Virus genome (UHGV): UHGV-0144896
Strand: one strand, 5' to 3'
Length of the DNA: 12,966 bases
DNA from: a virus
A program made the position numbers and the translations under genes. The notes under the pieces were generated by a model. It did not search any database. It saw nothing but the letters and a program-made list of their open reading frames with translations, and was not told the DNA's origin. Of this stretch, positions 1 to 12,966 are shown in pieces (within the stretch, counting starts at the first letter, position 1; the number at the start of each line of letters is the position of its first letter).

Positions 1-172
1 CATCGTCTTCTTCCTCGTACATTGAGCTATTCGGATCGCTCATCAGTTCTGCGCAGCACGCTTCACATACATGAACTTCCAGCACATGCAGCTTCTGACC
101 GCAGTTAGCGCACGTTAAAGCCCGCTCGACGCTTTCTTTCTGGTATTGAAGGGATTGTGATGGGCTAAGCAT
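1..172 (-). CDS. ninF: NinF-like protein, 3' end truncated by the window edge
   Basis: Minus-strand ATG at 172..170 overlaps the stop of the upstream gene. Translation reads [57 protein letters not shown] and runs off the window. It has a Cys-rich CxxC...CxxCC pattern and matches my recollection of lambda NinF. Not in the ORF track because it is partial. Confidence 0.6.
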
Positions 173-503
173 TATTGGCGTCCTGCATCAGGAGAAAGAC
201 AATCATGGCGGCGCGGAGAGGTCTGATATCAAATATTGGACTCACGCCTTTTGCATCTACACACCATTCAGTTAACTGGTCTAAGAAAGAAATTCTGTAT
301 TTCTCAATAATCGGCCATGCGTCTGCCGGGTTATTACATGGGTCAAACGCGCCTATTTTAGTTGGACCTCTTACTATCACTGCGCTACAACTGTCTTCTT
401 GTGTCCCTTGCCATCCCAGGCCGTTAAACTTCTTATGCCCTGTCGCTATCGCGACTCGCTTGTTAATTTCAAAATCACTTAACTGTGAATAATCCATTGT
501 CAT
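165..503 (-). CDS. nin-region protein, NinX-like (P22 arrangement), function unknown
   Basis: Track ORF 165..539, trimmed to the ATG at 503..501, which overlaps the stop of the upstream small gene as ATGA (TGA at 502..500). A GAGGAA Shine-Dalgarno sits directly upstream. Position between NinE and NinF matches P22 ninX. The family name is from memory, not verified. Confidence 0.5.
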
Positions 504-676
504 TTCCTCGCACGATGTCTTAGCCACCGGATATCCCACAGGTGAGCCGTGTAGTTGAAGGTTTTTACGTCAGATTCTTTTGGGATTGGCTTGCGTTTAT
601 TTCTGGAGCGTTTCGTTGGAAGGTATTTGCAGTTTTCGCAGATGATGTCGGTGATACTTCGTCGCTGTCGTCTCAT
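500..676 (-). CDS. ninE: NinE-like small basic protein (58 aa)
   Basis: Not in the ORF track (<60 aa). ATG at 676..674 overlaps the NinC stop as ATGA. Translation is [58 protein letters not shown], ending at TGA 502..500. Matches my recollection of lambda NinE. Confidence 0.55.
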
Positions 677-1518
677 GCAGCATCCTCAAAATTAAATCCA
701 AGCTGACATGAAAATGCTTCACATGATTCAGAACACGAACCTGAATCATACTGTCGCATTGATGTCATTCTTGAGGCTAACTCATCTCTTGATATATCAC
801 TAAACAAGGCAATCAGTGATTTAAGTGTATTATTCCCTCGATACATAACCGGTTCCTTTCCTGTTTTTATTTCTGTATCAAGGATGTTGATAAATGCATC
901 TGCAAGTTCTGGCTCATCCATGGCTGCCAGCGCCACCTTTTGCATACTTTTTTTTATGCAGAAAACACAATTACCAAGATGCTCCTGTATGCCAAGATCA
1001 AACTTCTGCTCACTCCACCAATCAAGCACATCCTGTTTTTCAAAATCGCTTATATCAGCCAGGTACCGAAAACCATTAGCCCTTTTAAGCCTGTTTGGTT
1101 CATCTGTGCGAATGCCAAGCCATGTGATGAAATTTCCTTTCCCAAACTTTTCCTGACAATATTTGGTGAATGGAACAGACTTCATTCTGTCGGTACAGAA
1201 CGCACCGCCGATATATGGATGTCCGTATTTATTCAACATCCTTTTCCACGGTATAAGATCTGGACCAATATCATTGACACCTATCTCTTCATAACTACTG
1301 GCCTTCCCCATTTCTGGATTAGGTATTACACGAAGGCAATGTAAGTCTATTTTCCAGTTACTGACGATATTTCGGATGAACTCATATGTTTTAGGGTGCT
1401 CTGCCCCTGTATCCATGAAAACGTAATGCACGTCTTCACCTGCCTGTCGCTTTTGCTCCATTAGCCAGAGCAAATATGCTGACGTCCTGCCACCGGAGAA
1501 ACTAACGACATTTATCAT
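673..1518 (-). CDS. ninC: NinC-like protein, PAPS reductase / adenine-nucleotide alpha-hydrolase family
   Basis: Track ORF 673..1578, trimmed to the ATG at 1518..1516, which overlaps the NinB stop as ATGA. N-terminus [17 protein letters not shown] carries a PP-loop SGGxxS motif typical of the PAPS reductase family. Size (281 aa) and position after ninB match lambda NinC (orf290). Confidence 0.7.
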
Positions 1519-1955
1519 GCAGCCCTGTCTCCCCATCTCGCTTTCCACTCCAGAGCCAGTCGCGCTTCGTCTGACCACTTAACGCCACGTTCTGTACCGA
1601 ATGCCTGTATAAGCTCTAATAGCTCCGCAAATTCGCTTACACGCATCCTGCTGGTTGACTGGCCTATTACCACAAAGCCATTCCCGGCAAGGTTAGGAAC
1701 AACGTCCTGCTGCTTTAATGCTGCGGTAAACACACACTTCCAGCTTTCTGCATCCAGCCAGCGACCATGCCATTCAACCTGACGAGAGACGTCACCAAGG
1801 CAAGCCCAAAGCTTCCGATTCTGGTCTAAGCTGCGGTTGCGCTCCTGAATGATCACTACGATTGGCTTGGTTGGGTCTGGAAGAATTTGCTGTACCGCGT
1901 GAATAGCGTTTTGCTGATGTGCTGGAGATCGAATTTCAAAGGTTAGTTTTTTCAT
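1515..1955 (-). CDS. ninB: NinB recombination protein (Orf-family recombination mediator)
   Basis: Track ORF 1515..1973 begins at a TTG; the first ATG is at 1955..1953 and is preceded by a strong SD (GGGAGAGGGAAG). This gives 146 aa starting MKKLTFEIRSPAHQQNAIHAVQQILPDPTKP, which matches lambda NinB (orf146) closely from memory. Confidence 0.85.
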   Translation of the reverse strand: MKKLTFEIRSPAHQQNAIHAVQQILPDPTKPIVVIIQERNRSLDQNRKLWACLGDVSRQVEWHGRWLDAESWKCVFTAALKQQDVVPNLAGNGFVVIGQSTSRMRVSEFAELLELIQAFGTERGVKWSDEARLALEWKARWGDRAA

Positions 1956-1970
1956 GACTTCCCTCTCCCC

Positions 1971-2003
1971 CAAATAAAAAGGCCTGCGATTACCAGCAGG
2001 CCT
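1971..2003 (-). terminator. Intrinsic terminator downstream of the helicase gene (tR2-like position)
   Basis: On the minus strand an 8-bp perfect stem (aggcctgc / gcaggcct, loop 8 nt) is followed by TTTTTATTTG. It sits between the helicase stop (2029) and the ninB SD, where lambda tR2 lies. Confidence 0.5.
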
Positions 2004-2028
2004 GTTATTAGCTCAGTAATGTAGATGG

Positions 2029-3405
2029 TCATACGTCAGCCCCTTGTGCATATCGTCTGCCACGCGCAGCAGGTGCATTTGATGCTGTGCAAATCTGTCT
2101 GGCTTCATCCTGATCACATGCAACAAAGTGTCCGTTGCAGAACCGCTGGTAAACCGTACCAAGTGAGCCAAAACGGTTTTTCGTCACGATGATTTCAGCA
2201 AATGGCGCGGCGCTACTGTTCTCGTCATATACCGCTTCCCGATAGAGCATGATGATTGAGTCTGCGTCCTGCTCAATGCTTCCTGAATCACGCAAATCTG
2301 CGTTTGTCGGGCGTTTGTTTGGTCGCTTCTCAACATCGCGCGAAAGCTGACTTAGGGAGATCACAGGCGTTTTCAGGTCTTTCGCCATCGCCTTAAGGCT
2401 TCCGGAGATGTGAGCAATTGCGAGGTCGTTGCGATCTGCTTTCGGCTTCTCAATCAGGCCAAGATAATCCGCCATGATGAGTGACAGGTTTGGATTTTCC
2501 TGTTTGTGCCGTTCTGCGATTGAGCGTATTTCTTCGACCGATAACCGCGAGGCATCGACTACCCATACATCCAAATCTGCAAGCTGACTCATGCCGTTAG
2601 CAACGCGCGCCCAGCCTTCGTCATCCATCGATGCAGGATTTCGCAGCACGCTAACCGACATCCTCCCGGCGTTGGCAATACTTCGCTCTGCAATCTGCAA
2701 TGCGCTCATTTCCATTGAGAAAATCAATACCCCGCGCCGGACGTCAGAACCAGGAATAACGCGGCTTGCAACGCCTTCGGCAATCTTCAGCGCCAGTTCG
2801 GTTTTCCCCATACCAGGACGAGCAGCGATTATCACCAGGTCTTCCGCGTTCATCCCTCCGGTGATGGCATCAAGTTCTTCGATTCCGGTCTTCAGGGTAT
2901 CTGACTCTTTTCCGTTCCTCAGACGCCTGTCAAGCGTGTCAGTGTAGTCGGTGATGATTTCCCCTAACCGTACAGGTTTAACCTCGTCACGGGGCTTTCT
3001 GATGGCTGAAAGACGCTTTACAAGTTCATCCATCGCCTGACTTGATGCGTCGATGGTTCCGCTCTGAATTGGTTCACGCATTTCATCCATGATTTCCAGC
3101 ACCAGACGGCGGTGATAGTTATCCGCGACCATTCCGGCATATCCCTTCAGGTTTGCGGCACTCGGGCAGTTTTTGCTGGTCATCAGGATTGACGTGAAAT
3201 GCTCCTCTCCGCACGCCTCGGCAACCATCAGCGCGTCGATTAGGTTTCTGTTTCGCGCCTGTTTGCGGATAACCTCGAAGGCTTTCCGGTAGAGCGGAAT
3301 TGAAAACGCTTCCGGCTCAAGCGTTGCCAGAACGTCACTGGCAGTTGGTGTTAATCCACCAATCAGCAGGCCACCGATAACGCTCGCTTCGATATCCTGT
3401 CTCAT
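2029..3405 (-). CDS. Replicative DNA helicase, DnaB family (phage-encoded, P22 gene 12-like)
   Basis: 458-aa ORF. ATG at 3405 overlaps the O-like gene stop as ATGA. Contains a Walker A-like [17 protein letters not shown] and a Walker B-like hydrophobic stretch ending in D ([12 protein letters not shown]), plus an N-terminal DnaB-like domain. Lies directly after the initiator gene, as in P22-type replication modules. Confidence 0.85.
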
Positions 3406-4349
3406 GCAATCCCCCTGTCTGCAAACTTCCCTTCCCGTACTCCCGTTAACGAATCTTCCCTCAGCAGGTAATCAAAATCTGCCGTCCAGCCAGTGTCGTT
3501 GTCTCCGAAGTAAAACGGCTTGGCCTGATGTACAAACGCCCTGACATACGCTCTGAAACCGTCCACGTTTGGCGTTTTCAGTTGCGGGATGATTTTCTTC
3601 AGGCGGCGTTTGCGTTTCTCGTTGACCGCAACAGCGTGTGGCAGTCTGTCACCGACTTCGGTGTTGTAGGCGTTAAGGAAGGATTCGTAGTCGATGCGTT
3701 CTGCCTTGCGACGTTCAGGCTTAACCTGCCCATCGCCGCCCCCATTGGGGGGTAGGGGGGTATTATTTATATTCTTGTTAATACCTTCTTGTTCATGATG
3801 TGCGGTTGTTTGTGCGACATCATGTGCGGTTGTTTGTGCGGCATGTACTCTGAAAGCCGCGCCATTACTGGCTTCGTCATGTGCGGCATCATGTGCGGTT
3901 GTTTGTGCGGCTTCATGTGCGGGTGAATCGTCCATTTTTTGAGCATATTCATGGTAATTTGTGATGGTAATCACACGACCTTTTTGCTTCTCTCCATCAA
4001 TGGTGATCATCCCCTCTTTCACAAAAACCTGAAGCATCCGCTCAACCTGATCGCGGCTTGCTGGCTTGCCATGCCTGTCGCATAACTGAAGACCTAAATC
4101 AGCTGCTGTCACAACCAGTTGACCGGGTTGCAGATGCCATTCATGACCTTTGAAATTCGCTTTGTATGGCTTTCTGGCGGCATTCAGGAGAAGGTTTTCC
4201 CACAGGGTGCGAAGATAAACATCTTTCGCCCATGACTGTTTCAGAATGCTCCGGTACAACGGAATGTAACCAGTTTTCTGGTTCTCCATCCTGTTGCTCC
4301 TGCGCTCGTGTGCGGCGCTGAAATCGTAGATTTTTGCTGTGTTGCTCAT
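3402..4349 (-). CDS. Replication initiator protein, lambda O-like / P22 gene 18-like
   Basis: 315-aa ORF starting [10 protein letters not shown], similar to the lambda O N-terminus. The central region has repeated peptide segments ([27 protein letters not shown]) encoded by DNA iterons. Position is between cII and the helicase. Confidence 0.75.
3760..3925. repeat. Putative origin of replication: iteron array plus adjacent AT-rich tract inside the O-like gene
   Basis: At least four direct copies of a ~19-20 bp unit (catgtgcggttgtttgtgcg and variants; TGTGCGG core) lie between ~3795 and 3925. An AT-rich stretch (tattatttatattcttgttaatacc) and a G-tract lie at 3735..3795. Same architecture as lambda ori within O. 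Confidence 0.6.
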
Positions 4350-4351
4350 AA

Positions 4352-4624
4352 CTACCTGCCTTGACGAAAGACCTTAAGAACATCGTTAAACTGACTTACG
4401 GATATGTCTTCTTTGAGCAGCTTTTCCAGAAATGCGTTTGGAATGAACGTATATCCATCCTCTTTTGGTAGAGACGGGAGCAACGCCCTCGCCTCAGCCT
4501 TCAGAAGCTCAGTTCTGGCAACTTTCACAAAAGAGATTTGAGTTCTTTCATCAATGGAACGAAGGAAGCGCAAACGCTTAGCTTCTTTGTGTGTATCAGG
4601 TGGATTAAAGCCTTTGTTTCGCAT
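4352..4624 (-). CDS. Hypothetical protein (90 aa) between cII and the replication initiator
   Basis: Track ORF 4352..4789, trimmed to the ATG at 4624..4622 with a GAGG SD 8 nt upstream; the longer form would overlap cII by ~140 nt. Stop at 4352 is 2 nt from the O-like ATG. No family recognised. Confidence 0.45.
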   Translation of the reverse strand: MRNKGFNPPDTHKEAKRLRFLRSIDERTQISFVKVARTELLKAEARALLPSLPKEDGYTFIPNAFLEKLLKEDISVSQFNDVLKVFRQGR

Positions 4625-4646
4625 ATAATTACCTCGTTGGATGTTG

Positions 4647-4943
4647 TTAAAATTCCATCTGGATTTGTTCAGAACGCTCGGTTGCCGCCGGGCGTTTTTT
4701 ATTGGTGAGTCCATCAAGCGCATACTTAAAAGCCCTGCTAATCGGACTGATGTCTGATGCCATTCCGAAAGCACACAAGACCGAAGCAATAAATCTCCAG
4801 TCCGTTCTGCTTATCTTCGATTCATGACAGCCAATCATCTTTGCCAGACCGCGCTGGGTAAGCGTTGACAGGTTGATGAGTAAATCAGTTTCAGCGCGAT
4901 CAATTTCTCGCTGTGTTGGCTTGCTGTAGCTTGCTTGTGCCAT
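4647..4943 (-). CDS. cII: Transcriptional activator CII (lambda cII / P22 c1 homologue)
   Basis: 98 aa. C-terminus LTNKKRPAATERSEQIQMEF matches the lambda CII C-terminus from memory. Central HTH-like segment TQRGLAKMIGCHESKISR. AGGAAA SD upstream of ATG 4943. Confidence 0.8.
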   Translation of the reverse strand: MAQASYSKPTQREIDRAETDLLINLSTLTQRGLAKMIGCHESKISRTDWRFIASVLCAFGMASDISPISRAFKYALDGLTNKKRPAATERSEQIQMEF

Positions 4944-4976
4944 TTGTTAATTTTCCTATATTGATATTGAGTTATA

Positions 4977-5001
4977 GCGGCACACCCAATGGATTTGCCG
5001 C
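4977..5001 (-). terminator. Hairpin in the tR1 position (possible rho-dependent terminator)
   Basis: 6-bp perfect stem (gcggca / tgccgc) with a 13-nt loop between nutR and the cII start. No U-tract follows on the minus strand, so any termination would be rho-dependent as for lambda tR1. Weak call. Confidence 0.3.
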
Positions 5002-5011
5002 TGATGTTTGC

Positions 5012-5052
5012 TCACCCGGTTAGAGGTGAAAGGCCAGAACTGTTAAAGAGCA
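5012..5052 (-). promoter_or_regulatory. nutR site (boxA plus boxB hairpin), phi21-type
   Basis: Minus-strand boxA TGCTCTTTAACA (5041..5052) lies immediately downstream of the cro stop. It is followed by a hairpin tcacc-TCTAACCG-ggtga (5012..5029) that shares the CTAACCG loop with the nutL hairpin at 6160..6179. Confidence 0.55.
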
Positions 5053-5058
5053 ATTTGC

Positions 5059-5244
5059 TTATGCCGCTTGGCGGTAAGCACTTTCTTGATACTTCAGGGC
5101 GCCAGCTGTAACGATTTCCAATCGATAGGCGTCTTTCTCTGGGATAACTTCTTTCCACTGAGAGACTGCTGCATCGCTAATGCCTAGTGCTTTAGCAACA
5201 GCACGCTGGGTTCCGAAGTGGTCAATAACATCTTTTTTGTACAT
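5059..5244 (-). CDS. cro: Cro repressor, P22-type
   Basis: 61 aa, MYKKDVIDHFGTQRAVAKALGISDAAVSQWKEVIPEKDAYRLEIVTAGALKYQESAYRQAA. Near-identical to my recollection of P22 Cro. HTH QRAVAKALGISDAAVSQW. Divergent from the repressor gene. Confidence 0.85.
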   Translation of the reverse strand: MYKKDVIDHFGTQRAVAKALGISDAAVSQWKEVIPEKDAYRLEIVTAGALKYQESAYRQAA

Positions 5245-5324
5245 AGACTCGCTCCGAAATTAAAGAACACTTAAATTATCCACCAAAGGAATCTTAAGTC
5301 AAGTTTATTTAAGATGTCTTAACT
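5245..5324. promoter_or_regulatory. OR operator region with divergent PR / PRM promoters (P22-type operators)
   Basis: Three 18-bp sites fit the P22 operator pattern ANTNAAG-N4-CTTNANT: 5259..5276 (attaaagaacacttaaat, perfect palindrome), 5282..5299 (accaaaggaatcttaagt, one mismatch) and 5307..5324 (atttaagatgtcttaact). The last abuts the repressor ATG. Confidence 0.7.
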
Positions 5325-5975
5325 ATGAATACACAACTGATGGGTGAGCGTATTCGCGCTCGCAGAAAAGAACTCAAGATTAGGCAGGCTGCCCTTGGCA
5401 AGATGGTTGGCGTGTCTAATGTTGCTATTTCCCAATGGGAGCGATCTGAAACTGAGCCCAATGGCGAAAACCTATTGGCCTTAGCCAAGGCTTTGCAGTG
5501 CTCCCCTGATTACCTGTTGAAAGGAGAGGATAGTCTTTCAAACATTGCCTATCACAGCAGGCATGATCCAAGAGGTTCGTATCCTCTAATTAGTTGGGTA
5601 AGCGCAGGATGTTGGATGGAAGCTGTAGAGCCATATCATAGGCGTGCAATAGATAACTGGTACGACACAACGGTAGATTGTTCTGAAGACTCTTTTTGGC
5701 TCGATGTTAAAGGCGACTCAATGACTGCCCCGGCAGGACTGAGTATTCCTGAGGGGATGATTATTCTCGTCGACCCAGAAGTCGAACCACGTAATGGAAA
5801 GCTGGTAGTCGCCAAACTTGAAGGAGAAAACGAGGCGACATTCAAAAAGTTAGTTATTGATGCCGGTAGAAAATTCCTGAAACCACTCAATCCACAATAC
5901 CCAATGATTGAAATCAATGGGAACTGTAAAATCATTGGCGTTGTCGTTGATGCCAAGCTAGCAAACCTTCCTTAA
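5325..5975 (+). CDS. c2: Prophage repressor C2 (P22 c2-like), LexA/S24-type self-cleaving repressor
   Basis: 216 aa. N-terminal HTH (QAALGKMVGVSNVAISQWERSE) and a C-terminal S24 peptidase-like domain with GDSM (Ser) and a downstream Lys. Very similar to P22 C2 from memory. Confidence 0.9.
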   Translation: MNTQLMGERIRARRKELKIRQAALGKMVGVSNVAISQWERSETEPNGENLLALAKALQCSPDYLLKGEDSLSNIAYHSRHDPRGSYPLISWVSAGCWMEAVEPYHRRAIDNWYDTTVDCSEDSFWLDVKGDSMTAPAGLSIPEGMIILVDPEVEPRNGKLVVAKLEGENEATFKKLVIDAGRKFLKPLNPQYPMIEINGNCKIIGVVVDAKLANLP

Positions 5976-5998
5976 GGGGCTTTCGCCCCTTTTTTATT
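5975..5998 (+). terminator. Intrinsic terminator after the repressor gene
   Basis: aggggc-tttc-gcccct stem-loop followed by TTTTTTATTT, immediately after the c2 stop codon. Confidence 0.6.
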
Positions 5999-6039
5999 TC
6001 CCGTTAAAAATCAAAGACAAACTAAATTCACGCCCATAA

Positions 6040-6093
6040 AATTAAGTTTTCTTCAAAAATGCACTTGACCAATAAATTAAGAAGTCTTAAATT
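6040..6093 (+). promoter_or_regulatory. OL operators and PL promoter
   Basis: P22-type operator aattaagaagtcttaaat at 6075..6092 and a one-mismatch copy at 6040..6057. Candidate -35 TTGACC (6065..6070) and -10 TAAATT (6088..6093) with 17-bp spacing, directed toward the N gene. Confidence 0.55.
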
Positions 6094-6139
6094 TAAGCCA
6101 TCAGCAGGACGCTGGAAGCCAAACGGAACAGATTGGCAG

Positions 6140-6179
6140 GCTCTTTAACATCGACGGACTCTCAACCTAACCGTTGAGA
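6140..6179 (+). promoter_or_regulatory. nutL site (boxA plus boxB hairpin), phi21-type
   Basis: boxA GCTCTTTAACA at 6140..6150, then a perfect 7-bp stem hairpin tctcaac-CTAACC-gttgaga at 6160..6179. Located between PL and the N start. Confidence 0.55.
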
Positions 6180-6289
6180 CCAGAACTTGAGTGGTTTTGG
6201 GGATGGCGCGAATTGCAGCTGCAAGACAGCGATCGAGAAGATAAGCACCTCGACGCGTCATGCGCCAAAGCCACTTAAAGGAGACCATC

Positions 6290-6595
6290 ATGGTAACCAT
6301 TGTCTGGAAAGAATCCAAAGGTACGGCAAAAAGCCGCTACAAAGCTCGCAGAGCAGAACTTATTGCCGAGCGACGCAGTAATGAAGCACTGGCGCGAAAA
6401 ATTGCGCTAAAGCTCTCTGGTTGCGTCAGAGCAGACAAAGCAGCATCACTAGGAAGCCTTTGCTGCAAGAAGAAAGAAGAAGTCGTTCGAAAAAATAGAA
6501 GTATTTATTACAAGGATTCAAACCCATTAGGAAACAAAATACATGCAGTCCAAAAAATAAAATTGTACAGTAAACCACCGTACGGTGCTTATTGA
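6290..6595 (+). CDS. N: Antitermination protein N (phi21-type arginine-rich motif)
   Basis: Track ORF 6260..6595, trimmed to ATG 6290 with an AAAGGAG SD 6 nt upstream. The N-terminal arginine-rich motif GTAKSRYKARRAELIAERR matches the phi21 N boxB-binding peptide as I recall it. ~101 aa, first gene after PL/nutL. Confidence 0.75.
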   Translation: MVTIVWKESKGTAKSRYKARRAELIAERRSNEALARKIALKLSGCVRADKAASLGSLCCKKKEEVVRKNRSIYYKDSNPLGNKIHAVQKIKLYSKPPYGAY

Positions 6596-6597
6596 GT

Positions 6598-6936
6598 ATG
6601 CTTATGGTGAAAAAGACTATTTATGTTAATCCCGACCACGGACAAAATAGAAAAGTATCTGATAGAGGTCTTACATCTCGAGACAGGAGGAGAATAGCGA
6701 GATGGGAAAAGAGGATAGCATATGCATTAAAAAACGGTGTAACACCTGGCTTTAATGCTATAGATGACGGTCCTGAATATAAGATTAATGAAGACCCAAT
6801 GGACAAAGTTGACAAAGCATTAGCAACACCATTTCCTCGCGATGTTGAAAAAATTGAAGATGAAAAATATGAGGATGTAATGCACAGGGTTGTTAACCAC
6901 GCTCACCAACGAAATCCAAATAAAAAATGGTCATAG
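6598..6936 (+). CDS. Hypothetical hydrophilic protein (~113 aa), AT-rich accessory gene
   Basis: Track ORF 6592..6936 starts at a TTG; the first ATG is at 6598, another at 6604. No clear SD, so it may be coupled to the N stop at 6595. Visibly more AT-rich than the flanking genes and followed directly by a strong terminator. No family recognised. Confidence 0.5.
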   Translation: MLMVKKTIYVNPDHGQNRKVSDRGLTSRDRRRIARWEKRIAYALKNGVTPGFNAIDDGPEYKINEDPMDKVDKALATPFPRDVEKIEDEKYEDVMHRVVNHAHQRNPNKKWS

Positions 6937-6958
6937 CCCACTTCGGTGGGTTTTTTAT
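6937..6958 (+). terminator. Intrinsic terminator (tL1-like)
   Basis: cccac-ttcg-gtggg stem-loop followed by TTTTTTATT, immediately after the stop at 6936. Confidence 0.65.
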
Positions 6959-7072
6959 TGTCTGAACTAACCGAATTTACTACAGCAAACCACGCAGTGA
7001 AATGGGCGTGACTTGTGTTGGTCGCCAGAAAATGAAATTAGGCAGCAAACCACTTATTTGAGAGGAATTAAT

Positions 7073-7696
7073 ATGTCATCAATCCGCTTAACAACGAGTA
7101 TGAAAGAGAAAATCGCTCGTAACGCTTTAATTAAATCTGGGGTTTTCACTGAGCTTGAAGAAGTAACAAAGTTAAAGAACCAGCTTGCACTTGACGCCAG
7201 AGTTGTTGTGTTTGGCGGTAAAAAGAAAACTGAGGAAGTGGATCAGTTATCATCCAAGTTAATGGCTATAAGCGAAGAACTTGAAAAGCTGGGATGTTCA
7301 TTTTACTCATGCGATGCCCGTTCAACTTCAATTTATCTGACTGTATCTGGCAGAAGGGTTGGCTGGTATTCATATGGGAAAGACGGCAACGGCGAAGATA
7401 TATTGCTCCCTACTCCGACCAAAGATAAATGCATGTTTAGCGCAGAACACGAAATAACAAAAAGGTTTGATGAAATCTGCGCATTGCAACAAAAACTTGA
7501 AGCCAAGAAAAAGGATATCGAATCAAATGTATGGGCTGCTTTGAACTCAGTCACAACAGTTAAGCGACTTATTGAAGTTTGGCCTGAAAGCAAAGAGTTG
7601 CTACCAAAAGAAGCAGATAAAGCAAGTACAGCACTTCCTGCTTTACGGGTAGAAGATTTGAATAAGATGATTGGACTTCCTTCCGAGGTCGCATAA
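7073..7696 (+). CDS. Hypothetical protein (207 aa), AT-rich accessory gene in the PL operon
   Basis: Track ORF 7013..7696, trimmed to ATG 7073 with a GAGG SD 7 nt upstream. Hydrophilic, lysine/glutamate-rich, with no obvious transmembrane segment, so it is unlikely to be SieB. Bracketed by terminators at 6937..6958 and 7831..7856. No family recognised. Confidence 0.5.
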   Translation: MSSIRLTTSMKEKIARNALIKSGVFTELEEVTKLKNQLALDARVVVFGGKKKTEEVDQLSSKLMAISEELEKLGCSFYSCDARSTSIYLTVSGRRVGWYSYGKDGNGEDILLPTPTKDKCMFSAEHEITKRFDEICALQQKLEAKKKDIESNVWAALNSVTTVKRLIEVWPESKELLPKEADKASTALPALRVEDLNKMIGLPSEVA

Positions 7697-7740
7697 TCGT
7701 CCTTTATTTTTGGCATAAACAACAGAATAAACACTGCACT

Positions 7741-7768
7741 GTGTATTCATTCCAATGAGTGAATACAC
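7741..7768. repeat. Perfect 9-bp inverted repeat with 10-nt spacer
   Basis: gtgtattca (7741..7749) and tgaatacac (7760..7768) are exact reverse complements; the pairing extends to 11 bp with one T/G position. Intergenic, not followed by a T-run. Confidence 0.5.
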
Positions 7769-7830
7769 GGAGCAATGTCGCTCGTAACTAAACAGGAGCC
7801 GACTTGTTCTGATTATTGGAAATCTTCTTT

Positions 7831-7856
7831 GCCCTCCAGTGTGAGGGCTTTTTTAT
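7831..7856 (+). terminator. Intrinsic terminator upstream of cIII (tL2-like)
   Basis: gccctc-cagtgt-gagggc stem-loop followed by TTTTTTAT. Confidence 0.6.
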
Positions 7857-7920
7857 ATGCATACCAATAACGCTTCACTCGAGGCGTTTTCGTTATGCAA
7901 TCAAATATAAGGAGTTACCC

Positions 7921-8055
7921 ATGATGCACTTTCAGCTCGCGGGTAGCGGCGTCATGTCCGCTTTCTACCCGCACGAATCTGAATTATCACGCCGAGTTAA
8001 ACAATTAATCAGAGCAGCAAAGAAACAACTGGAGGCGTTATGCGCAATGAAATAG
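7921..8055 (+). CDS. cIII: CIII-like protein (lambda cIII / P22 c3 homologue, FtsH inhibitor)
   Basis: Track ORF 7816..8055, trimmed to ATG 7921 with an AAGGAG SD 6 nt upstream. The 44-aa product MMHFQLAGSGVMSAFYPHESELSRRVKQLIRAAKKQLEALCAMK resembles the lambda CIII core (..AGWPVAGCPSESLLERITRKLR..) from memory. Confidence 0.6.
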   Translation: MMHFQLAGSGVMSAFYPHESELSRRVKQLIRAAKKQLEALCAMK

Positions 8056-8192
8056 CCATTAATCACCAGATGCTTCGTGCTGCACAGAACAAAGCAGTAA
8101 TAGCCAGATTTATTGGTGATTCAAAAATGTGGCTTGAAGCAAATAAAGCGATGAAATCAGCTATCAACCTTCCATGGTATCGCAGGAAATGA
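8040..8192 (+). CDS. kil: Kil-like small protein (host cell-division inhibitor), 50 aa
   Basis: Not in the ORF track (<60 aa). ATG 8040 has a GGAGG SD (8031..8035) and overlaps the cIII 3' end. Product is MRNEIAINHQMLRAAQNKAVIARFIGDSKMWLEANKAMKSAINLPWYRRK. The call rests on position (after cIII, before erf) and a remembered FIGDxKM-like pattern in lambda Kil; it is unverified. Confidence 0.45.
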   Translation: MRNEIAINHQMLRAAQNKAVIARFIGDSKMWLEANKAMKSAINLPWYRRK

Positions 8193-8359
8193 GTTTTACA
8201 GATAACTGGTCAGACGAAGAATTCATTCGTCAGATGAAAGAATTAATCGGTAACGAAGGAGATATTCATGTCACTTGCAACCACCGTGAAGGAGAGCAAG
8301 TTACAGAGACGCATGTACACGCAGCAGGCGTTAATGTATCGCCAGAAGGGAGATCGTGA
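8189..8359 (+). CDS. Small hypothetical protein (56 aa) in the position of P22 arf
   Basis: Track ORF 8174..8359. ATG 8189 overlaps the Kil-like stop as ATGA. Acidic protein with no family recognised. Assignment is positional only. Confidence 0.4.
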   Translation: MSFTDNWSDEEFIRQMKELIGNEGDIHVTCNHREGEQVTETHVHAAGVNVSPEGRS

Positions 8360-8448
8360 AGGTGTTCGCGTCTTTTTAAATGCGGCAAAGACTGAAGTAT
8401 TAAATCAGCGTTATTTCCTTGGGCCATGCCCATTCTGAGAACAAACAT

Positions 8449-9054
8449 ATGAGCAAAGAATTTTACGCAAGACTGGCAGCTATTCAGGAGAACTTGAACG
8501 CGCCAAAGAATCAGTACAACTCATTCGGTAAATATAAATACAGAAGCTGCGAAGACATTCTTGAAGGAGTTAAGCCGTTACTGAATGGCCTGTTTTTATC
8601 AATCAGCGATGAAGTTGTGTTGATTGGTGATCGGTATTACGTGAAAGCAACGGCAACTATTACCGATGGCGAAAACAGTCATACGGCAACCGCACTAGCA
8701 CGAGAGGAAGAAAGCAAGAAAGGAATGGATTCTGCACAAGTTACGGGAGCTACAAGCTCTTATGCACGCAAGTATTGCCTCAATGGTTTGTTCGGCATTG
8801 ATGATGCGAAAGATGCAGATACAGACGAGCATAAACATCAGCAGAACGCAGCAGCAAAGCAATCAAAACCATCACCTACATCTGAACAGGTTCTAAAAGC
8901 ATTCACTGACGCAGCAATGCAGAAAAACACCGTAGAAGAGCTTAAACAGGCGTTCGCCAAAGCGTGGAAGATGCTCGAAGGCACACCGGAGCAGCACAAA
9001 GCGCAGGACGTTTACAACATCAGACGAGGCGAATTAGAAGGAGCGGCAGCTTAA
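8449..9054 (+). CDS. erf: Erf-family single-strand annealing recombinase (P22 Erf-like)
   Basis: Track ORF 8419..9054 begins at a TTG; the first ATG at 8449 gives MSKEFYARLAAIQENLNAPKNQYNSFGKYKYRSCEDILEGVKPLL, close to P22 Erf from memory (~201 aa). The alternative start at 8419 cannot be excluded. Confidence 0.8.
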   Translation: MSKEFYARLAAIQENLNAPKNQYNSFGKYKYRSCEDILEGVKPLLNGLFLSISDEVVLIGDRYYVKATATITDGENSHTATALAREEESKKGMDSAQVTGATSSYARKYCLNGLFGIDDAKDADTDEHKHQQNAAAKQSKPSPTSEQVLKAFTDAAMQKNTVEELKQAFAKAWKMLEGTPEQHKAQDVYNIRRGELEGAAA

Positions 9055-9437
9055 TGGCACATTCGATTACTGTAAGACTAAACAAGCCCGCAAGAGAGTT
9101 TCAGGCCGGGGAAAATATCGGATTCAACATCCGTGCTGGCGTTCAGTATTACGATCGCCAGACAAAAAAGAAAGAATGGACAAACTACAGCGCCGTTGTA
9201 TTTGCCAAGCCGGGAGCGCAAGTGGATTACTACCGTAGTGTTCTTGTTGAAGGTGGCATTGTTGAAATTACCGGAGAAAACATCAGGGTTGATGTTTATC
9301 AGGGGCAAAATGGTCAATCAATCACTCTTGAATTACTGAATGCAAAGATTGGATTTGCAGCTTCAGGAAATGGCCCGCAGCAGCAAAGTAGTAACCAGCA
9401 GAACACTCCTGTATACGACGATTCCATCCCATTCTGA
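9054..9437 (+). CDS. SSB-like protein with C-terminal acidic DDSIPF tail (127 aa)
   Basis: Track ORF 8964..9437, trimmed to ATG 9054, which overlaps the erf stop as TAATG. The C-terminus ..NTPVYDDSIPF matches the canonical SSB tail (DDDIPF), preceded by a Gln/Gly-rich linker and a ~100-aa probable OB-fold. Confidence 0.5.
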   Translation: MAHSITVRLNKPAREFQAGENIGFNIRAGVQYYDRQTKKKEWTNYSAVVFAKPGAQVDYYRSVLVEGGIVEITGENIRVDVYQGQNGQSITLELLNAKIGFAASGNGPQQQSSNQQNTPVYDDSIPF

Positions 9438-9460
9438 TTCAGAAAAATAAGGATTTAATT

Positions 9461-9754
9461 ATGCCAGCGCCTCTGTATGGTGCGGATGACCCGCGCCGCT
9501 GTTCCGGCAATTCCGTATCGGAGGTGCTGGATAAATTCAGGAAAAACTACGACCGGATAATGTCTCTACCGCAGGAAACGAAAGAGGAAAAGGAATTTCG
9601 CCATTGTATATGGCTTGCAGAGAAAGAAGAACGCGAGAGAATTTACCAGACATCAATCCGACCATTCCGCAAAGCCACATATACCCACTTCCCTGAAATT
9701 GACCCGCGCCTGCGTAATTACCGCTCACGCTATGGCGCTATCAGTAATGACTGA
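9461..9754 (+). CDS. abc2: Anti-RecBCD protein, Abc2-like (97 aa)
   Basis: AAGGA SD upstream of ATG 9461. [26 protein letters not shown]... matches my recollection of P22 Abc2 in sequence and size, and sits downstream of erf as in P22. Unverified. Confidence 0.5.
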
Positions 9755-9764
9755 GGAATTTACC

Positions 9765-9932
9765 ATGAGAGGACTTGCATACAATCCCGGCATTCTTCCG
9801 GCAGAAATGATTATTCGCCAACGCGTAAAGCCAATGCCATCGAGAGAGGAATTACTTAAGCGAAACTCGCTTCCATCAGTGAATCAGAACAAATATCTGA
9901 ATGCGATGTGGCGCAAAGGAGGCAACCAGTGA
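9765..9932 (+). CDS. Small hypothetical protein (55 aa)
   Basis: In frame with track ORF 9615..9932. ATG 9765 has a GAGGAA SD. Its stop overlaps the GTG start of the next gene (GTGA). Confidence 0.4.
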
Positions 9933-10372
9933 GCGAAATTAACTATCAGGCACTGCGCGAGGCGGCAGAGAAAGCAACGTGTGGTGTGTGGTCGCTCGAA
10001 TATGGAGATGGCCGATTTGATGGTGATGATGCACTAATTCATCGCGATGCTGCTGGATATGTTCCCATTTGCAGAATTGAAGGAGCGCATCCTGAAAGCG
10101 GTTTCGATGAAGATTTCCAAATGGAACAGCAGGCCAATGCTGAATTCATCGCTGCAGCCAATCCGGCTACCGTCTTAGCTCTGCTGGGCGAGCTGGAAAC
10201 AGCAAAAAAGCGCATAGCAGAACTGGAGGTGCGGGAAATACTGCTCCCGGAACGTAGCAGCATGCTTCATCGAACAGATTTTCACGATGATTACCAAACG
10301 GTAATGGCATACAAAGTTTCTGAAGTCATCGATGCAATCCGCGCTACTGGCATTCGCATCAAAGGAGAGTGA
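9929..10372 (+). CDS. Ead/Ea22-like family protein
   Basis: Track ORF 9908..10372 starts at a GTG. I prefer GTG 9929, which has a strong AAGGAGG SD (9916..9922). N-terminus ..[27 protein letters not shown] is the motif I associate with Ea22-like proteins of E. coli prophages. The start choice is uncertain. Confidence 0.55.
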
Positions 10373-10373
10373 T

Positions 10374-10889
10374 ATGGCGTTAACACACCACGAACTCTGT
10401 CAGATTGCGTACAAGTTCCTTAAGCGCAACGGGTTCAAGGTTTGCTTTCATGACCGCTTTGTTGCTGTAACCAGTACCGGAGAACAGCCAGATGCTATGG
10501 GATTCAGAAATTCAGCATCATGCCTGATAGAGGCGAAGTGTTCTCGTGCTGATTTGTTGGCAGATAGAAAAAAGCGTTTCCGTAAAAATCCCTCACTTGG
10601 CATGGGCGACTGGCGATTCTTTATTAGTGAGCCGGGGATTATTTCAATTGAGGATTTACCACCTGGCTGGGGATTACTTCACGTTGTTAACGGAAGAGTA
10701 CGGAAAGTACATGGGTGGCCAAAGGGCAATTGCTGTTGGGGTAATCCTGACGATAAGCCATTTACTGGAAATAAGCAGGTTGAATGCGATTACATGTTAT
10801 CTGCATTAAGGCGCATGGAGTTGAGAGGGCACCTTAATGAAATATATGACGGTGTAATTGTTAATAAGAAAGAAGGAAACGCGGCATGA
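10374..10889 (+). CDS. Hypothetical protein with candidate PD-(D/E)xK nuclease motif (171 aa)
   Basis: Track ORF 10332..10889, trimmed to ATG 10374 directly after the upstream stop (GAGAGTGATATG, SD-like). Contains ..QPDAMGF..(14 aa)..LIEAKCSR, i.e. PD...ExK spacing typical of restriction-endonuclease-fold nucleases. Possibly MmcB-like. Confidence 0.5.
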   Translation: MALTHHELCQIAYKFLKRNGFKVCFHDRFVAVTSTGEQPDAMGFRNSASCLIEAKCSRADLLADRKKRFRKNPSLGMGDWRFFISEPGIISIEDLPPGWGLLHVVNGRVRKVHGWPKGNCCWGNPDDKPFTGNKQVECDYMLSALRRMELRGHLNEIYDGVIVNKKEGNAA

Positions 10890-11527
10890 CCACTATTACC
10901 AAAGAGCGACTGCTGACAATCAAGCAGTGGCGCGAAACATACGGACCTGGTAGCAACGTTGTACTGCCAGCAGAAGAAGCGGAAGAACTGGCACGAATTG
11001 CTCTGGCATCGCTGGAACGCGAACAGATTCGCCACGAGCATGCCAAATGGTCTGACTCCACATTTGGCTGCGTTGGCCCCATTGGTCCACTGAAACACCT
11101 CTCAAAAGAGGCTCTGGAAGCCGCAGCCGAACCTGACGATCTCAGCGAGTGGGCTGATATGCAGTTCCTGTTGTGGGATGCACAGCGCCGTGCTGGCATC
11201 AGCGATGCTGAAATTACCGCTGCTATGGAAGATAAATTGAAGATCAACATGGAGCGCCAGTGGCCTGAGCCAAAAGATGGTGAGCCTCGCTTGCACATTA
11301 AAGAACCCGGCAACTCTCCGGGAACTCCGGATAGTTGGATAAGCTGTAGTGAGCGAATGCCGGAAGAAACGGGTGACATTATTGTTGTTTCGGATGGCAT
11401 TGTAATGTCAGGGATTTCTTATTCTCGTCGTGACGGGTTCTATATGGCCGCATTGGAGTACGACGACGACGAACCAATTGACGGTGTAACCCACTGGATG
11501 CCGCTGCCAGAACCGCCGCAGGGGTGA
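10886..11527 (+). CDS. Two-domain phage protein (DUF550-like N-terminus, DUF551-like C-terminus)
   Basis: 213 aa. ATG 10886 overlaps the upstream stop as ATGA. The C-terminal segment SCSERMPEE..GDIIVV...THWMPLPEPP resembles the DUF551 pattern common in enterobacterial prophages. Domain names are from memory. Confidence 0.55.
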   Translation: MTTITKERLLTIKQWRETYGPGSNVVLPAEEAEELARIALASLEREQIRHEHAKWSDSTFGCVGPIGPLKHLSKEALEAAAEPDDLSEWADMQFLLWDAQRRAGISDAEITAAMEDKLKINMERQWPEPKDGEPRLHIKEPGNSPGTPDSWISCSERMPEETGDIIVVSDGIVMSGISYSRRDGFYMAALEYDDDEPIDGVTHWMPLPEPPQG

Positions 11528-11593
11528 AATGATGCTTGGCCTGAAGTATTTTATGTAATTGGTATTGCTATATTTTTATCTGGGGATAAACGA

Positions 11594-11836
11594 ATGTTCT
11601 CTCTGATTCAACGTGGTCAGATATACACCGATAGCGCTGGCTATCCAGTAAAAATCATTCGTAGTACTGATCACTCAGTATTCTTCAAGAGGATGGATGG
11701 CTATCCTGGAAGAGTGTGCATCAGAAAATTCAATAATTTATTCGAACACATTGATCACAGAGAATATCACCAGATCCTGGCTGAAACAGAGCAGGAGAAC
11801 CATCTGAAAAAATTACGTGCCATGCAAAGGAGATAA
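11594..11836 (+). CDS. Small hypothetical protein (80 aa)
   Basis: Track ORF. Preceded by a TGGGGATAA motif that recurs upstream of the next gene. No family recognised with certainty. Confidence 0.45.
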   Translation: MFSLIQRGQIYTDSAGYPVKIIRSTDHSVFFKRMDGYPGRVCIRKFNNLFEHIDHREYHQILAETEQENHLKKLRAMQRR

Positions 11837-11924
11837 ACCGGTAAAGGTGTTCGCGATAAAGGTGAATATCGGCAATGAATAACAATCCTCGAACTCGCGG
11901 GGATTTCTTTTATATGGGGATAAT

Positions 11925-12725
11925 ATGACCATCCACTTTCACGGCAGCCCAATATGGGGGGATGAGCATGCCCCTACAGATATGCTGATTAAAGCCCTTT
12001 ACCGTGATGGTGGGGCTTTTGTTTCATTTGCCAGACCAGAGCAGATGAAAAAGATTGCCATGTTCCCTTGTGATATACGCCTTGATAACGGCGCTTTTAG
12101 CGACTGGATGAAAGCATTAAAGAAAGGCACTCCGGTAGACTGGAGTAAGAGACGAGCAAAATTCTACGACTTTGTTGGGAAGTGGTTCAGCAGAATTGAA
12201 TGGTTTCTTATACCTGACGTTATCGAAGGGACAGAGGCAGAAAACGACGAGCAGATTGAGTTGGTTCCTGATTGGCTAAAATCAAAAGCGGTTCCGGTCT
12301 GGCATACCGACGAATCAATTGAACGTCTTTTACGCCTTTCTAGCAAATTTGAATGGGTGGCGATTGGATGCTGCGGACCACACAGGCACATACGCTCTAA
12401 ATGGTGGGAACAGAGAATGGATGAAGTTTTCACTGAGCTTTATATCAATCGTAATTTGAAAGTGAAAATTCATGGTCTTCGAATGCTCGACGTGAGAGTT
12501 CTTGGTATGTATCCGTTCGCCAGTGCGGATTCTACTAATGTTGCTGTTAACGTACCGAAGACAGAGAAGCGATTTCCTGAGATTACCGACAAACTGGCAC
12601 GCACAGCTGTACTTCGCGCTGCTATTGAAAAGGTGCACCCGCCATCGATATCAGCATGGGTAGACAGAAAGATGAGAGAGCCGGCGCAAGCCGGTTTTTT
12701 ATTTGAATTCACCGACGCCGCTTAA
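11925..12725 (+). CDS. Hypothetical protein (266 aa); tentative TGT-fold (DpdA-like DNA-guanine transglycosylase) candidate
   Basis: Track ORF with a GGGGA SD-like sequence upstream. Several short motifs occur in the same order as catalytic motifs of bacterial tRNA-guanine transglycosylase: RDGGAFVSF / LDNGAFS (cf. TDSGGFQVF), AIGCCG (cf. AVGGLAVG), KIHGL (cf. YLMGVG) and FASADSTN (cf. MFDCVMPTRN). There is no C-terminal zinc domain. The product assignment is speculative. Confidence 0.6.
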   Translation: MTIHFHGSPIWGDEHAPTDMLIKALYRDGGAFVSFARPEQMKKIAMFPCDIRLDNGAFSDWMKALKKGTPVDWSKRRAKFYDFVGKWFSRIEWFLIPDVIEGTEAENDEQIELVPDWLKSKAVPVWHTDESIERLLRLSSKFEWVAIGCCGPHRHIRSKWWEQRMDEVFTELYINRNLKVKIHGLRMLDVRVLGMYPFASADSTNVAVNVPKTEKRFPEITDKLARTAVLRAAIEKVHPPSISAWVDRKMREPAQAGFLFEFTDAA

Positions 12726-12746
12726 TGCGGATTTCTTTTATCTGAA

Positions 12747-12770
12747 CTCGCTACGGCGAGTTTTGTTTTA
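12747..12770 (+). terminator. Intrinsic terminator after the 266-aa gene
   Basis: ctcgc-tacg-gcgag stem-loop followed by TTTTGTTTTA. Confidence 0.5.
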
Positions 12771-12782
12771 TGGAGATGATAA

Positions 12783-12950
12783 ATGCACTTCCGAGTCACA
12801 GGAGAATGGAATGGAGAACCATTCAACAGAGTTATCGAAGCAGAGGACATCAACGACTGCTATGACCACTGGATGATATGGGCACAGATAGCACATGCAG
12901 ACGTAACCAATATTCGAATTGAAGAACTGAAAGAACACCAAGCCGCCTGA
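12783..12950 (+). CDS. Small hypothetical protein (55 aa)
   Basis: Not in the ORF track. ATG 12783 (upstream GGAG, short spacing). Product MHFRVTGEWNGEPFNRVIEAEDINDCYDHWMIWAQIAHADVTNIRIEELKEHQAA. Its stop is embedded in a terminator hairpin. Confidence 0.45.
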   Translation: MHFRVTGEWNGEPFNRVIEAEDINDCYDHWMIWAQIAHADVTNIRIEELKEHQAA

Positions 12951-12966
12951 TGGCGGTTTTTTATTG
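12942..12966 (+). terminator. Intrinsic terminator at the window edge
   Basis: gccgcc-tgat-ggcggt stem-loop followed by TTTTTTATTG, overlapping the stop codon at 12948..12950. Confidence 0.55.

What the first reader, a model, noticed from the sequence alone, without database searches (positions are those of the whole stretch)
5012..6595. Mosaic immunity region: P22-type repressor/operators combined with phi21-type N and nut hairpins
The c2/cro proteins and the 18-bp operators match P22. In contrast, the N arginine-rich motif (GTAKSRYKARRAELIAERR) and the boxB hairpins of both nut sites (shared CTAACC(G) loop; boxA GCTCTTTAACA in both) look phi21-like rather than P22-like. The cognate pairing of N ARM and boxB on both sides of the immunity region is visible directly in the sequence and is a clean example of modular exchange.
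Basis: partly seen in the sequence, partly recalled or inferred. Interest (0 to 1): 0.45.

Follow-up and report, generated by a model that had tools for sequence, protein, structure and literature searches.

The report
Canonical phage 21 immunity region
This stretch is the long-studied immunity and N-antitermination control region of coliphage 21, sitting in a P22-like E. coli prophage, so a P22-like repressor next to a phi21-type N is the textbook arrangement and not a new hybrid.

Summary
There is a P22-family Cro and a LexA-like repressor. There are 18-bp operators at pR and pL. The N protein carries the exact phi21 arginine-rich motif. Two nut sites each have boxA GCTCTTTAACA and a boxB hairpin with a CUAACC loop.

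The combination is not a fresh mosaic. Window 4651-6512 is 98.7% identical to phage 21 itself. Cro and the repressor are 100% identical to phage 21's proteins, against 98.4% and 93.5% for P22's. The region is 100% identical to phage Kapi1 and 99.6% to mEp235, and at least 80% of window 5000-7100 is matched in 180 of 5,426 complete E. coli genomes.

Similarity to P22 (84%) starts and stops between boxA and boxB on both sides. The modular-exchange idea is therefore correct, but it is the classical P22/21 case, studied since the 1980s.

N's last ~35-40 residues are not phage 21's; most of that tail belongs to a 476-bp cassette shared with HK022. The cassette also carries the lambda-excluding termination factor Nun (108/109 identical), its promoter and a terminator. 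A relic of the phage-21-type N tail follows it. This N-Nun arrangement is already annotated in mEp235.

Verdict: real, ordinary, already known.

The parts
4647..4943 (-). cII-type activator gene (phage 21 type, not P22 c1 type)
   Evidence: Pfam Phage_CII E = 4e-36. 96% aa identity to phage 21 cII and 20% to P22 c1.
5011..5030 (-). nutR boxB hairpin, UUCACCU-CUAACC-GGGUGAG
   Evidence: Identical in phage 21, mEp235 and Kapi1. Annotated as nutR in the phage 21 record.
5041..5051 (-). nutR boxA, GCUCUUUAACA, 7 nt after the cro stop codon
   Evidence: Similarity to P22 ends just downstream of it.
5059..5244 (-). cro
   Evidence: Pfam P22_Cro E = 6e-28. 61/61 identical to phage 21 Cro and 60/61 to P22 Cro.
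5259..5324 (.). Right operator region: three 18-bp sites at 5259-5276, 5282-5299 and 5307-5324. They overlap pR (-35 TTGACT / -10 GATAAT, 5302-5275 on the - strand).
   Evidence: 100% identical to phage 21; 95% to P22 over the cro-repressor intergenic stretch 5245-5324 that contains it.
5325..5975 (+). Prophage repressor (cI of phage 21 / c2 of P22 family), 216 aa, HTH plus LexA-like S24 self-cleavage domain
   Evidence: Pfam HTH_3 and Peptidase_S24. 216/216 identical to the long reading frame of phage 21 and 202/216 to P22 c2.
5974..5991 (+). Terminator-like hairpin plus T run after the repressor gene
   Evidence: A terminator is annotated at the same place in phage 21.
6011..6092 (.). Left operator region: OL1 6075-6092, OL2 6040-6057 and a weaker third site near 6011-6028. 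It overlaps pL (TTGACC-17-TAAATT, 6065-6093).
   Evidence: and the phage 21 annotation.
6140..6150 (+). nutL boxA, GCUCUUUAACA
   Evidence: Similarity to P22 ends 4 nt after it (6154).
6160..6179 (+). nutL boxB hairpin, UCUCAAC-CUAACC-GUUGAGA
   Evidence: Identical in phage 21, mEp235, mEpX1, Kapi1 and PA28.
6188..6277 (+). Long predicted hairpin in the N leader, between nutL and the N ribosome-binding site
   Evidence: Fold of 6100-6300: -70.7 kcal/mol, z = -4.85, 0 of 200 shuffles as stable. Function not tested.
6290..6595 (+). N antiterminator, 101 aa. Residues 1-57 are identical to phage 21 N (ARM at 11-29). The C-terminal part is of a different, nun-linked type.
   Evidence: PHROG 271 'anti-termination protein N-like' E = 4e-32.
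6478..6953 (+). Cassette shared with HK022 (95% identity): N-tail coding sequence containing the annotated nun promoter (-35 at 6543-6548, -10 at 6566-6571), nun, and a terminator
6598..6936 (+). nun, the transcription termination (lambda exclusion) factor
   Evidence: 108/109 identical to PDB 6ALG chain N. ARM identical to PDB 1HJI chain B. PHROG 5632 E = 2e-70.
6935..6952 (+). Terminator-like hairpin plus T run after nun
6969..7062 (+). Relic of the phage-21-type N 3' end (encodes RIYYSKPRSEMGVTCVGRQKMKLGSKPLI*), displaced by the nun cassette
   Evidence: 95.7% identical to the end of phage 21 N.

Best explanation
The window carries the immunity and early-control region of coliphage 21 (imm21) inside a P22-like (Lederbergvirus, Kapi1-type) E. 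coli prophage.

It should work as in the lambda/P22/21 paradigm.
- The LexA-like repressor binds three 18-bp operators at pR and three at pL, which keeps the prophage silent.
- Cro binds the same sites during lytic growth.
- Transcripts from pL and pR each carry a nut site: boxA, a 9-10 nt spacer, then a boxB hairpin with a CUAACC loop.
[quoted passage not shown] With host Nus factors assembled on boxA, it makes RNA polymerase resistant to downstream terminators.

The repressor/Cro/operator cassette is a homologue of P22's. The N motif and boxB belong to a different specificity class from P22's. Phage 21 itself has exactly this combination.

The only departure from phage 21 is at the 3' end of N. 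A cassette also found in HK022 supplies an alternative N tail. Inside that tail lies a promoter, followed by nun and a terminator. Nun recognises lambda-type boxB, which this window lacks. It can therefore exclude lambda without harming the resident phage.

Shown here: sequence identities, site positions, predicted hairpins and co-variation of motif and boxB across phages. Inferred from the literature on lambda, 21, P22 and HK022: binding, antitermination and exclusion.
For: Identity to phage 21 and close relatives:
- Window 5000-6600 is 100% identical to Kapi1, 99.6% to mEp235, and 98.9% over 95% of its length to phage 21, lambda imm21 and DE3.
- The contiguous match to phage 21 runs 4651-6512 at 98.7%. 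P22 matches only 5041-6154, at 83.8%.
- Cro and the repressor are 100% identical to phage 21's.
- The phage 21 record annotates operators, boxA-L/R and nutL/R at the equivalent positions.

N and boxB:
- The N motif equals the PDB 1NYB peptide 22/22.
- The CUAACC hexaloop is the published phi21 boxB loop.

Motif and boxB co-vary across phages:
- P22 has the GNAKTRRHERRRKLAIERD motif with GACAA-type loops.
- Phage 21, mEp235, Kapi1 and PA28 have GTAKSRYKARR(A/E)ELIAERR (E in PA28) with CUAACC. mEpX1 has the same motif and the same nutL; its nutR was not fetched. PA28's nutR loop is CUAACA.
- HK620, N7, CUS-3 and Gally have DNARNRRRARRQAQREQ with a CGAAAU loop.
- In every phage where both sites were read, both nut sites match the motif. 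boxA is GCTCTTTAACA at every junction outside P22, whose two boxA each differ by one base (GCTCTTTAACT, GCTCTTTACCA).

Nun: identified. The cassette and the N-tail relic are shown. The nun promoter is conserved. No lambda-type boxB occurs in the window, even with up to 3 mismatches.

Frequency: at least 80% of window 5000-7100 is matched in 180 of 5,426 complete E. coli genomes.
Against: - No functional assay was possible.
- The fold z-scores of the isolated nut hairpins are not significant.
- Rfam has no matching family.
- The N C-terminus differs from phage 21's, so full equivalence of N function is assumed from the fact that plaque-forming phages (mEp235, mEpX1, Kapi1) carry this allele, not tested.
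- That the P22 and 21 repressors share specificity is inferred from the identical recognition-helix region and near-identical operators, plus my memory of Poteete et al. 1980. I could not read that paper.
Confidence: 0.93

Rival explanations
1. The region is a recent recombinant in which a P22 immunity cassette was joined to phi21-type N and nut sites.
For: Cro, the repressor and the operators are close to P22's. Similarity to P22 stops sharply between boxA and boxB on both sides.
Against: The cassette is only 84% identical to P22 at the DNA level but 99.5-100% identical to phage 21 segment by segment. It is contiguous with phage-21-type cII and N in one 98.7% block. Any exchange predates phage 21 and is shared by all imm21 carriers.
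Confidence: 0.03
2. N in this window was disabled by the nun cassette insertion. The prophage would then rely on something else for antitermination, as HK022 relies on put RNA, or would be defective.
For: The tail of N is replaced from about residue 58-68, and a relic of the original tail lies downstream. HK022 carries the same cassette and has no N.
Against: The N reading frame is intact at 101 aa. Its tail is homologous in pattern to phage 21's (Y-Y, QKIKL-SKP). The same allele is present in the isolated phages mEp235, mEpX1 and Kapi1, and the same tail without nun in PA28 and Stx1a phages. Both cognate nut sites are intact. C-terminal swaps in functional N homologues are documented for P22 versus L gp24 (PMC8022706). 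No put-like family was reported by Rfam, though it may not be modelled there.
Confidence: 0.04

Closest known systems
imm21 region of coliphage 21 (OL657228; also in lambda imm21 and DE3)
   Same: cII, nutR, cro, the three right operators, the repressor, the left operators, pL, nutL, the N leader and N residues 1-57 are the same, at 98.7% DNA identity over 4651-6512. Cro and the repressor are 100% identical.
   Different: The N C-terminal part (from between residues 58 and 68) is of another type. nun with its promoter and terminator follows N, where phage 21 has ral. The replication genes left of cII are P22-like (DnaB-type helicase), not lambda O/P-like.
Phages Kapi1 (MT813197) and mEp235 (JQ182731)
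   Same: Identical arrangement, including the N allele and nun: 100% and 99.6% identity over 5000-6600. The mEp235 record annotates N, Nun and both boxA sites.
   Different: Essentially none within the finding. The window departs from Kapi1 outside 1965-7847.
P22 immC region with gene 24 and its nut sites
   Same: Homologous Cro (98.4%), repressor (93.5%), operators (two of the five clear sites are identical, three differ at 1-2 bases), pR/pL layout and boxA.
   Different: Gene 24's arginine-rich motif, both boxB hairpins (GACAA-type loops) and c1 are unrelated in sequence. DNA similarity ends between boxA and boxB on both sides.
Lambda N / nut antitermination
   Same: Same architecture and presumed mechanism: an arginine-rich helix on a boxB hairpin, boxA for the Nus factors, and one nut site per early operon.
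   Different: A different motif and a hexaloop boxB in place of lambda's GAAAA/GAAGA pentaloop. The specificity is orthogonal, which is what lets Nun coexist with N here.
HK022 Nun
   Same: 108/109 residues identical, with the same upstream promoter sequence and terminator.
   Different: In HK022 the sequence upstream of nun is only a relic of an N tail and the phage has no N. Here the same sequence is the live 3' end of N.

Membership tests
N/nut antitermination, phi21 specificity class | N protein with the phi21 arginine-rich motif at its N-terminus | tested here: met
   Residues 8-29 are identical (22/22) to the PDB 1NYB chain A peptide. PHROG 271 N-like, E = 4e-32.
N/nut antitermination, phi21 specificity class | boxB hairpin with a CUAACC hexaloop in both early transcripts, each preceded by boxA | tested here: met
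   nutL 6140-6179 and nutR 5051-5011. The loop matches the published phi21 boxB.
N/nut antitermination, phi21 specificity class | N-dependent read-through of downstream terminators | not testable with these tools
   Needs a reporter assay. Terminator-like sites exist downstream.
P22/21-type immunity cassette | LexA-like repressor (HTH plus S24 domain) and a P22_Cro-family Cro, transcribed divergently | tested here: met
   Pfam hits. 100% identity to phage 21's proteins; 93.5% and 98.4% to P22's.
P22/21-type immunity cassette | Tripartite 18-bp operators overlapping pR/pRM and pL | tested here: met
   Five clear sites plus one weak site, overlapping promoter-like hexamers.
P22/21-type immunity cassette | Cross-immunity with P22 c2 / phage 21 cI | not testable with these tools
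   Inferred only. Residues 1-68 of the repressor differ from P22 c2 at two positions (K16E, S54A), outside SNVAISQWERS.
imm21 region of coliphage 21 | Contiguous near-identity from cII through N | tested here: inconclusive
   Met from 4651 to 6512 at 98.7%. Not met for the last ~35-40 codons of N, which are of the nun-linked type.
HK022 Nun | Nun arginine-rich motif and C-terminal HAHQRNPNKKWS segment | tested here: met
   108/109 identical to PDB 6ALG chain N.

The most novel reading that the evidence does not exclude
The 476-bp cassette (N tail containing the nun promoter, nun, and a terminator) may be a mobile accessory unit that inserts into N genes while supplying a replacement N C-terminus. 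Three observations fit this: the relic of an N tail upstream of nun in HK022, the displaced phage-21-type tail at 6969-7062 here, and the different crossover point in PA28. If so, nun arose and spread within N-dependent phages, where the orthogonal phi21 motif/boxB code shields the host phage from its own Nun. HK022 would then be a descendant that lost N. I could not establish whether this has been described. The co-occurrence of N and Nun is at least already annotated in mEp235.
Probability: 0.2. Interest if true: 0.3.

Novelty: already known. Interest (0 to 1): 0.1.

Why it matters
It matters little as a discovery. This is the reference phi21 N/boxB system (NMR structure 1NYB) next to the phage 21 repressor and operators, in a prophage type found in about 3% of complete E. 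coli genomes.

It is useful in two ways.
- As annotation: PGAP labels N and Nun here as 'hypothetical protein' or 'regulator'.
- As a clean illustration of three points. The immunity cassette and the N-motif/boxB pair reassort independently. boxA is the constant junction. N and Nun, two arginine-rich RNA-binding proteins, can share one operon because their boxB codes do not overlap.

Tried and rejected
- An Rfam gathering search of the whole window found nothing, so there is no curated family for nut sites of this type.
- Fold z-scores for the isolated nut sites were uninformative. I relied instead on loop identity, on the two stems differing yet both pairing, and on comparison across phages.
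- Cilley and Williamson 2003 (PMC1370434) is not held. The boxB loop sequence was taken from a later paper that describes PDB 1NYB.
- I looked for a held paper stating that P22 and phage 21 are homoimmune. I found only citations of Poteete et al. 1980 and Franklin 1985, so that point remains inference plus memory.
- I first read the phage 21 match breaking off at 6512 as a simple insertion truncating N. The protein alignment and the four-way DNA alignment showed instead a homologous but different tail, followed by a relic of the original one.
- I considered contamination by DE3 or lambda imm21 laboratory constructs. I rejected this because the flanks are Kapi1-like and the N-tail/nun cassette is absent from those constructs.

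Full report
**What is there.** In this window pR points left (- strand) and pL points right. From left to right the region contains:
- cII, 4647-4943 (-)
- nutR: boxB 5030-5011 and boxA 5051-5041, both on the - strand
- cro, 5059-5244 (-)
- three 18-bp operators at 5259-5324, overlapping a TTGACT/GATAAT promoter
- the repressor gene, 5325-5975 (+), followed by a terminator
- the left operators and a TTGACC/TAAATT promoter, 6011-6093
- nutL: boxA 6140-6150 and boxB 6160-6179
- a structured leader
- N, 6290-6595 (+)

Pfam assigns P22_Cro, HTH_3 plus Peptidase_S24, and Phage_CII to the three regulators. PHROGs assigns N to 'anti-termination protein N-like'.

**Checking the observation.** The N residues ESKGTAKSRYKARRAELIAERR match the phi21 N peptide of PDB 1NYB at 22 of 22 positions. 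Both boxB hairpins have the loop CUAACC, which a 2025 structural survey describes as the hexaloop of phi21 boxB in 1NYB. Both hairpins appear in the minimum-free-energy folds. The short-fragment z-scores are not significant. The better argument is that the two stems (UCUCAAC/GUUGAGA and UUCACCU/GGGUGAG) share almost no positions yet both pair, while the loops and boxA are identical.

Five operator sites match the P22-type pattern with at most one mismatch. All five lie in the two control regions, against one such match elsewhere in 12.9 kb. Aligned to P22, OR1 and OL1 are identical, OR3 and OL2 differ at one base, and OR2 differs at two. Cro is 60/61 and the repressor 202/216 identical to P22's.

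**What it is.** A search of phage genomes shows window 5000-6600 to be 100% identical to phage Kapi1 and 99.6% to mEp235. It is 98.9% identical, over 95% of its length, to coliphage 21 itself, lambda imm21 and DE3. The match to phage 21 is one contiguous block, 4651-6512, at 98.7%. P22 matches only 5041-6154, at 83.8%.

Segment by segment, the shared cassette is 99.5-100% identical to phage 21 and 76-95% identical to P22. Cro and the repressor are 100% identical to phage 21's proteins. The phage 21 record annotates operators, boxA-L/R and the nutL/nutR stem-loops at the equivalent positions. That genome was published by Feiss et al. 2022 (PMC9119081).

The region is therefore imm21. The P22-type repressor is phage 21's own repressor, and the pairing with phi21 N is the native one.

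**Is there modular exchange?** Yes, but it is old and general. The P22/21 similarity ends between boxA and boxB on both sides. Across phages, the same cro-repressor cassette occurs with three N-motif/boxB classes:
- P22: loops of the GACAA type.
- Phage 21, mEp235 and Kapi1: CUAACC.
- N7, CUS-3 and Gally: the HK620-type motif DNARNRRRARRQAQREQ with a CGAAAU loop.

Conversely, the phi21 motif and boxB occur with a 933W-like immunity region in PA28 and with a VT1-Sakai-like CI in mEpX1. In every phage where both sites were read, both nut sites match the motif. boxA reads GCTCTTTAACA at every junction outside P22, whose own two boxA each differ from it by one base.

This fits the classical modular picture. 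The P22 and 21 operators were analysed together by Poteete et al. 1980. The N/nut determinants of lambda, phi21 and P22 were compared by Franklin 1985. I confirmed that both references exist; their content is from my memory.

N is identical to phage 21 N only through residue 57. The rest is a different, loosely homologous tail. From 6478 to 6953 the window is 95% identical to HK022. That stretch holds four things:
- most of the alternative N tail;
- the promoter annotated for nun in the HK022-derived phage O276, which maps to 6543-6548 and 6566-6571 and is unchanged here;
- nun itself, 6598-6936, 108/109 identical to PDB 6ALG chain N, with its motif identical to PDB 1HJI and PHROG 5632 at E = 2e-70;
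- a terminator at 6935-6952.

Immediately after, 6969-7062 is a 95.7% copy of the 3' end of phage 21 N, encoding RIYYSKPRSEMGVTCVGRQKMKLGSKPLI*. So a cassette bringing its own N tail sits inside a phage-21-type N gene. In HK022 only a relic of that tail survives upstream of nun.

Nun arrests transcription on lambda by binding lambda boxB (PMC5386594). The window has no lambda-type boxB, even allowing three mismatches. The resident phage should therefore be untouched by its own Nun. The N-Nun arrangement is already annotated in mEp235. C-terminal swaps in working N homologues are documented for P22 and L (PMC8022706).

**Context.** At least 80% of window 5000-7100 is matched in 180 of 5,426 complete E. 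coli genomes, including strain MP1, the host of Kapi1, at 100% identity. Left of cII the window leaves phage 21 and carries an O-like initiator and a DnaB-type helicase, as in P22-like phages.

**Verdict.** It is the canonical phage 21 immunity region, already sequenced, annotated and structurally characterised. The N-tail/nun cassette is a modest extra.

Noticed in passing
window 6598-6936 (+), cassette 6478-6953: An HK022-type nun gene (108/109 aa identical), with its annotated promoter inside the N coding sequence and its own terminator, lies directly after N. PGAP calls it 'hypothetical protein' or 'regulator' in E. coli genomes.
   Followed up: yes
window 6969-7062 (+): A relic of the phage-21-type N C-terminal coding sequence (95.7% identical) lies downstream of the nun terminator. 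This shows that the nun cassette displaced the original N tail.
   Followed up: yes
window 6100-6300 (+), hairpin about 6188-6277: The N leader folds far better than shuffled controls (z = -4.85). A long hairpin lies between nutL and the N ribosome-binding site. There is also predicted pairing of the boxA region (6139-6146) with the Shine-Dalgarno region (6278-6286). This resembles the lambda N leader, which from memory is processed by RNase III and autoregulated by N. It was not tested.
   Followed up: partly
alignment A3; loci L008, L009, L010, L011: N proteins are themselves three-part mosaics. HK620, N7, CUS-3 and Gally share the phi21 central segment (ARKIALKLSGCVRADKAASLG) but have a different arginine-rich motif. 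Their tails are either P22-like (HK620) or phage-21-like (CUS-3, Gally).
   Followed up: partly
L007 (PA28), nutR near position 876 (- strand): The PA28 nutR boxB has the loop CUAACA instead of CUAACC on the phi21-type stem. Its N motif has one change (RREELIAERR). It sits beside a 933W-like immunity region.
   Followed up: no
L001 (phage 21 record OL657228), locus 1760-1825 and 1904-2476: The deposited annotation starts the repressor at an internal codon (190 aa), although the 216-aa frame aligns end to end with P22 c2. It also labels the three right operators OR3, OR2, OR2.
   Followed up: partly
window 7073-7696 (+): An Nmad5-family protein (Pfam E = 1e-70, 'nucleotide modification associated domain 5') follows the N-tail relic in the early left operon.
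   Followed up: no
window 3794-3832 and 3887-3925: A short internal repeat lies within the O-like replication initiator gene (3402-4349, -), coding for repeated AQTTAHD motifs. It is possibly origin iterons.
   Followed up: no
window 1-4650 and 7850-12966: Outside 1965-7847 the window is a patchwork relative to Kapi1, with 94-99% blocks separated by unrelated DNA. It also differs from phage 21 in its replication and recombination genes. This is typical lambdoid mosaicism.
   Followed up: partly
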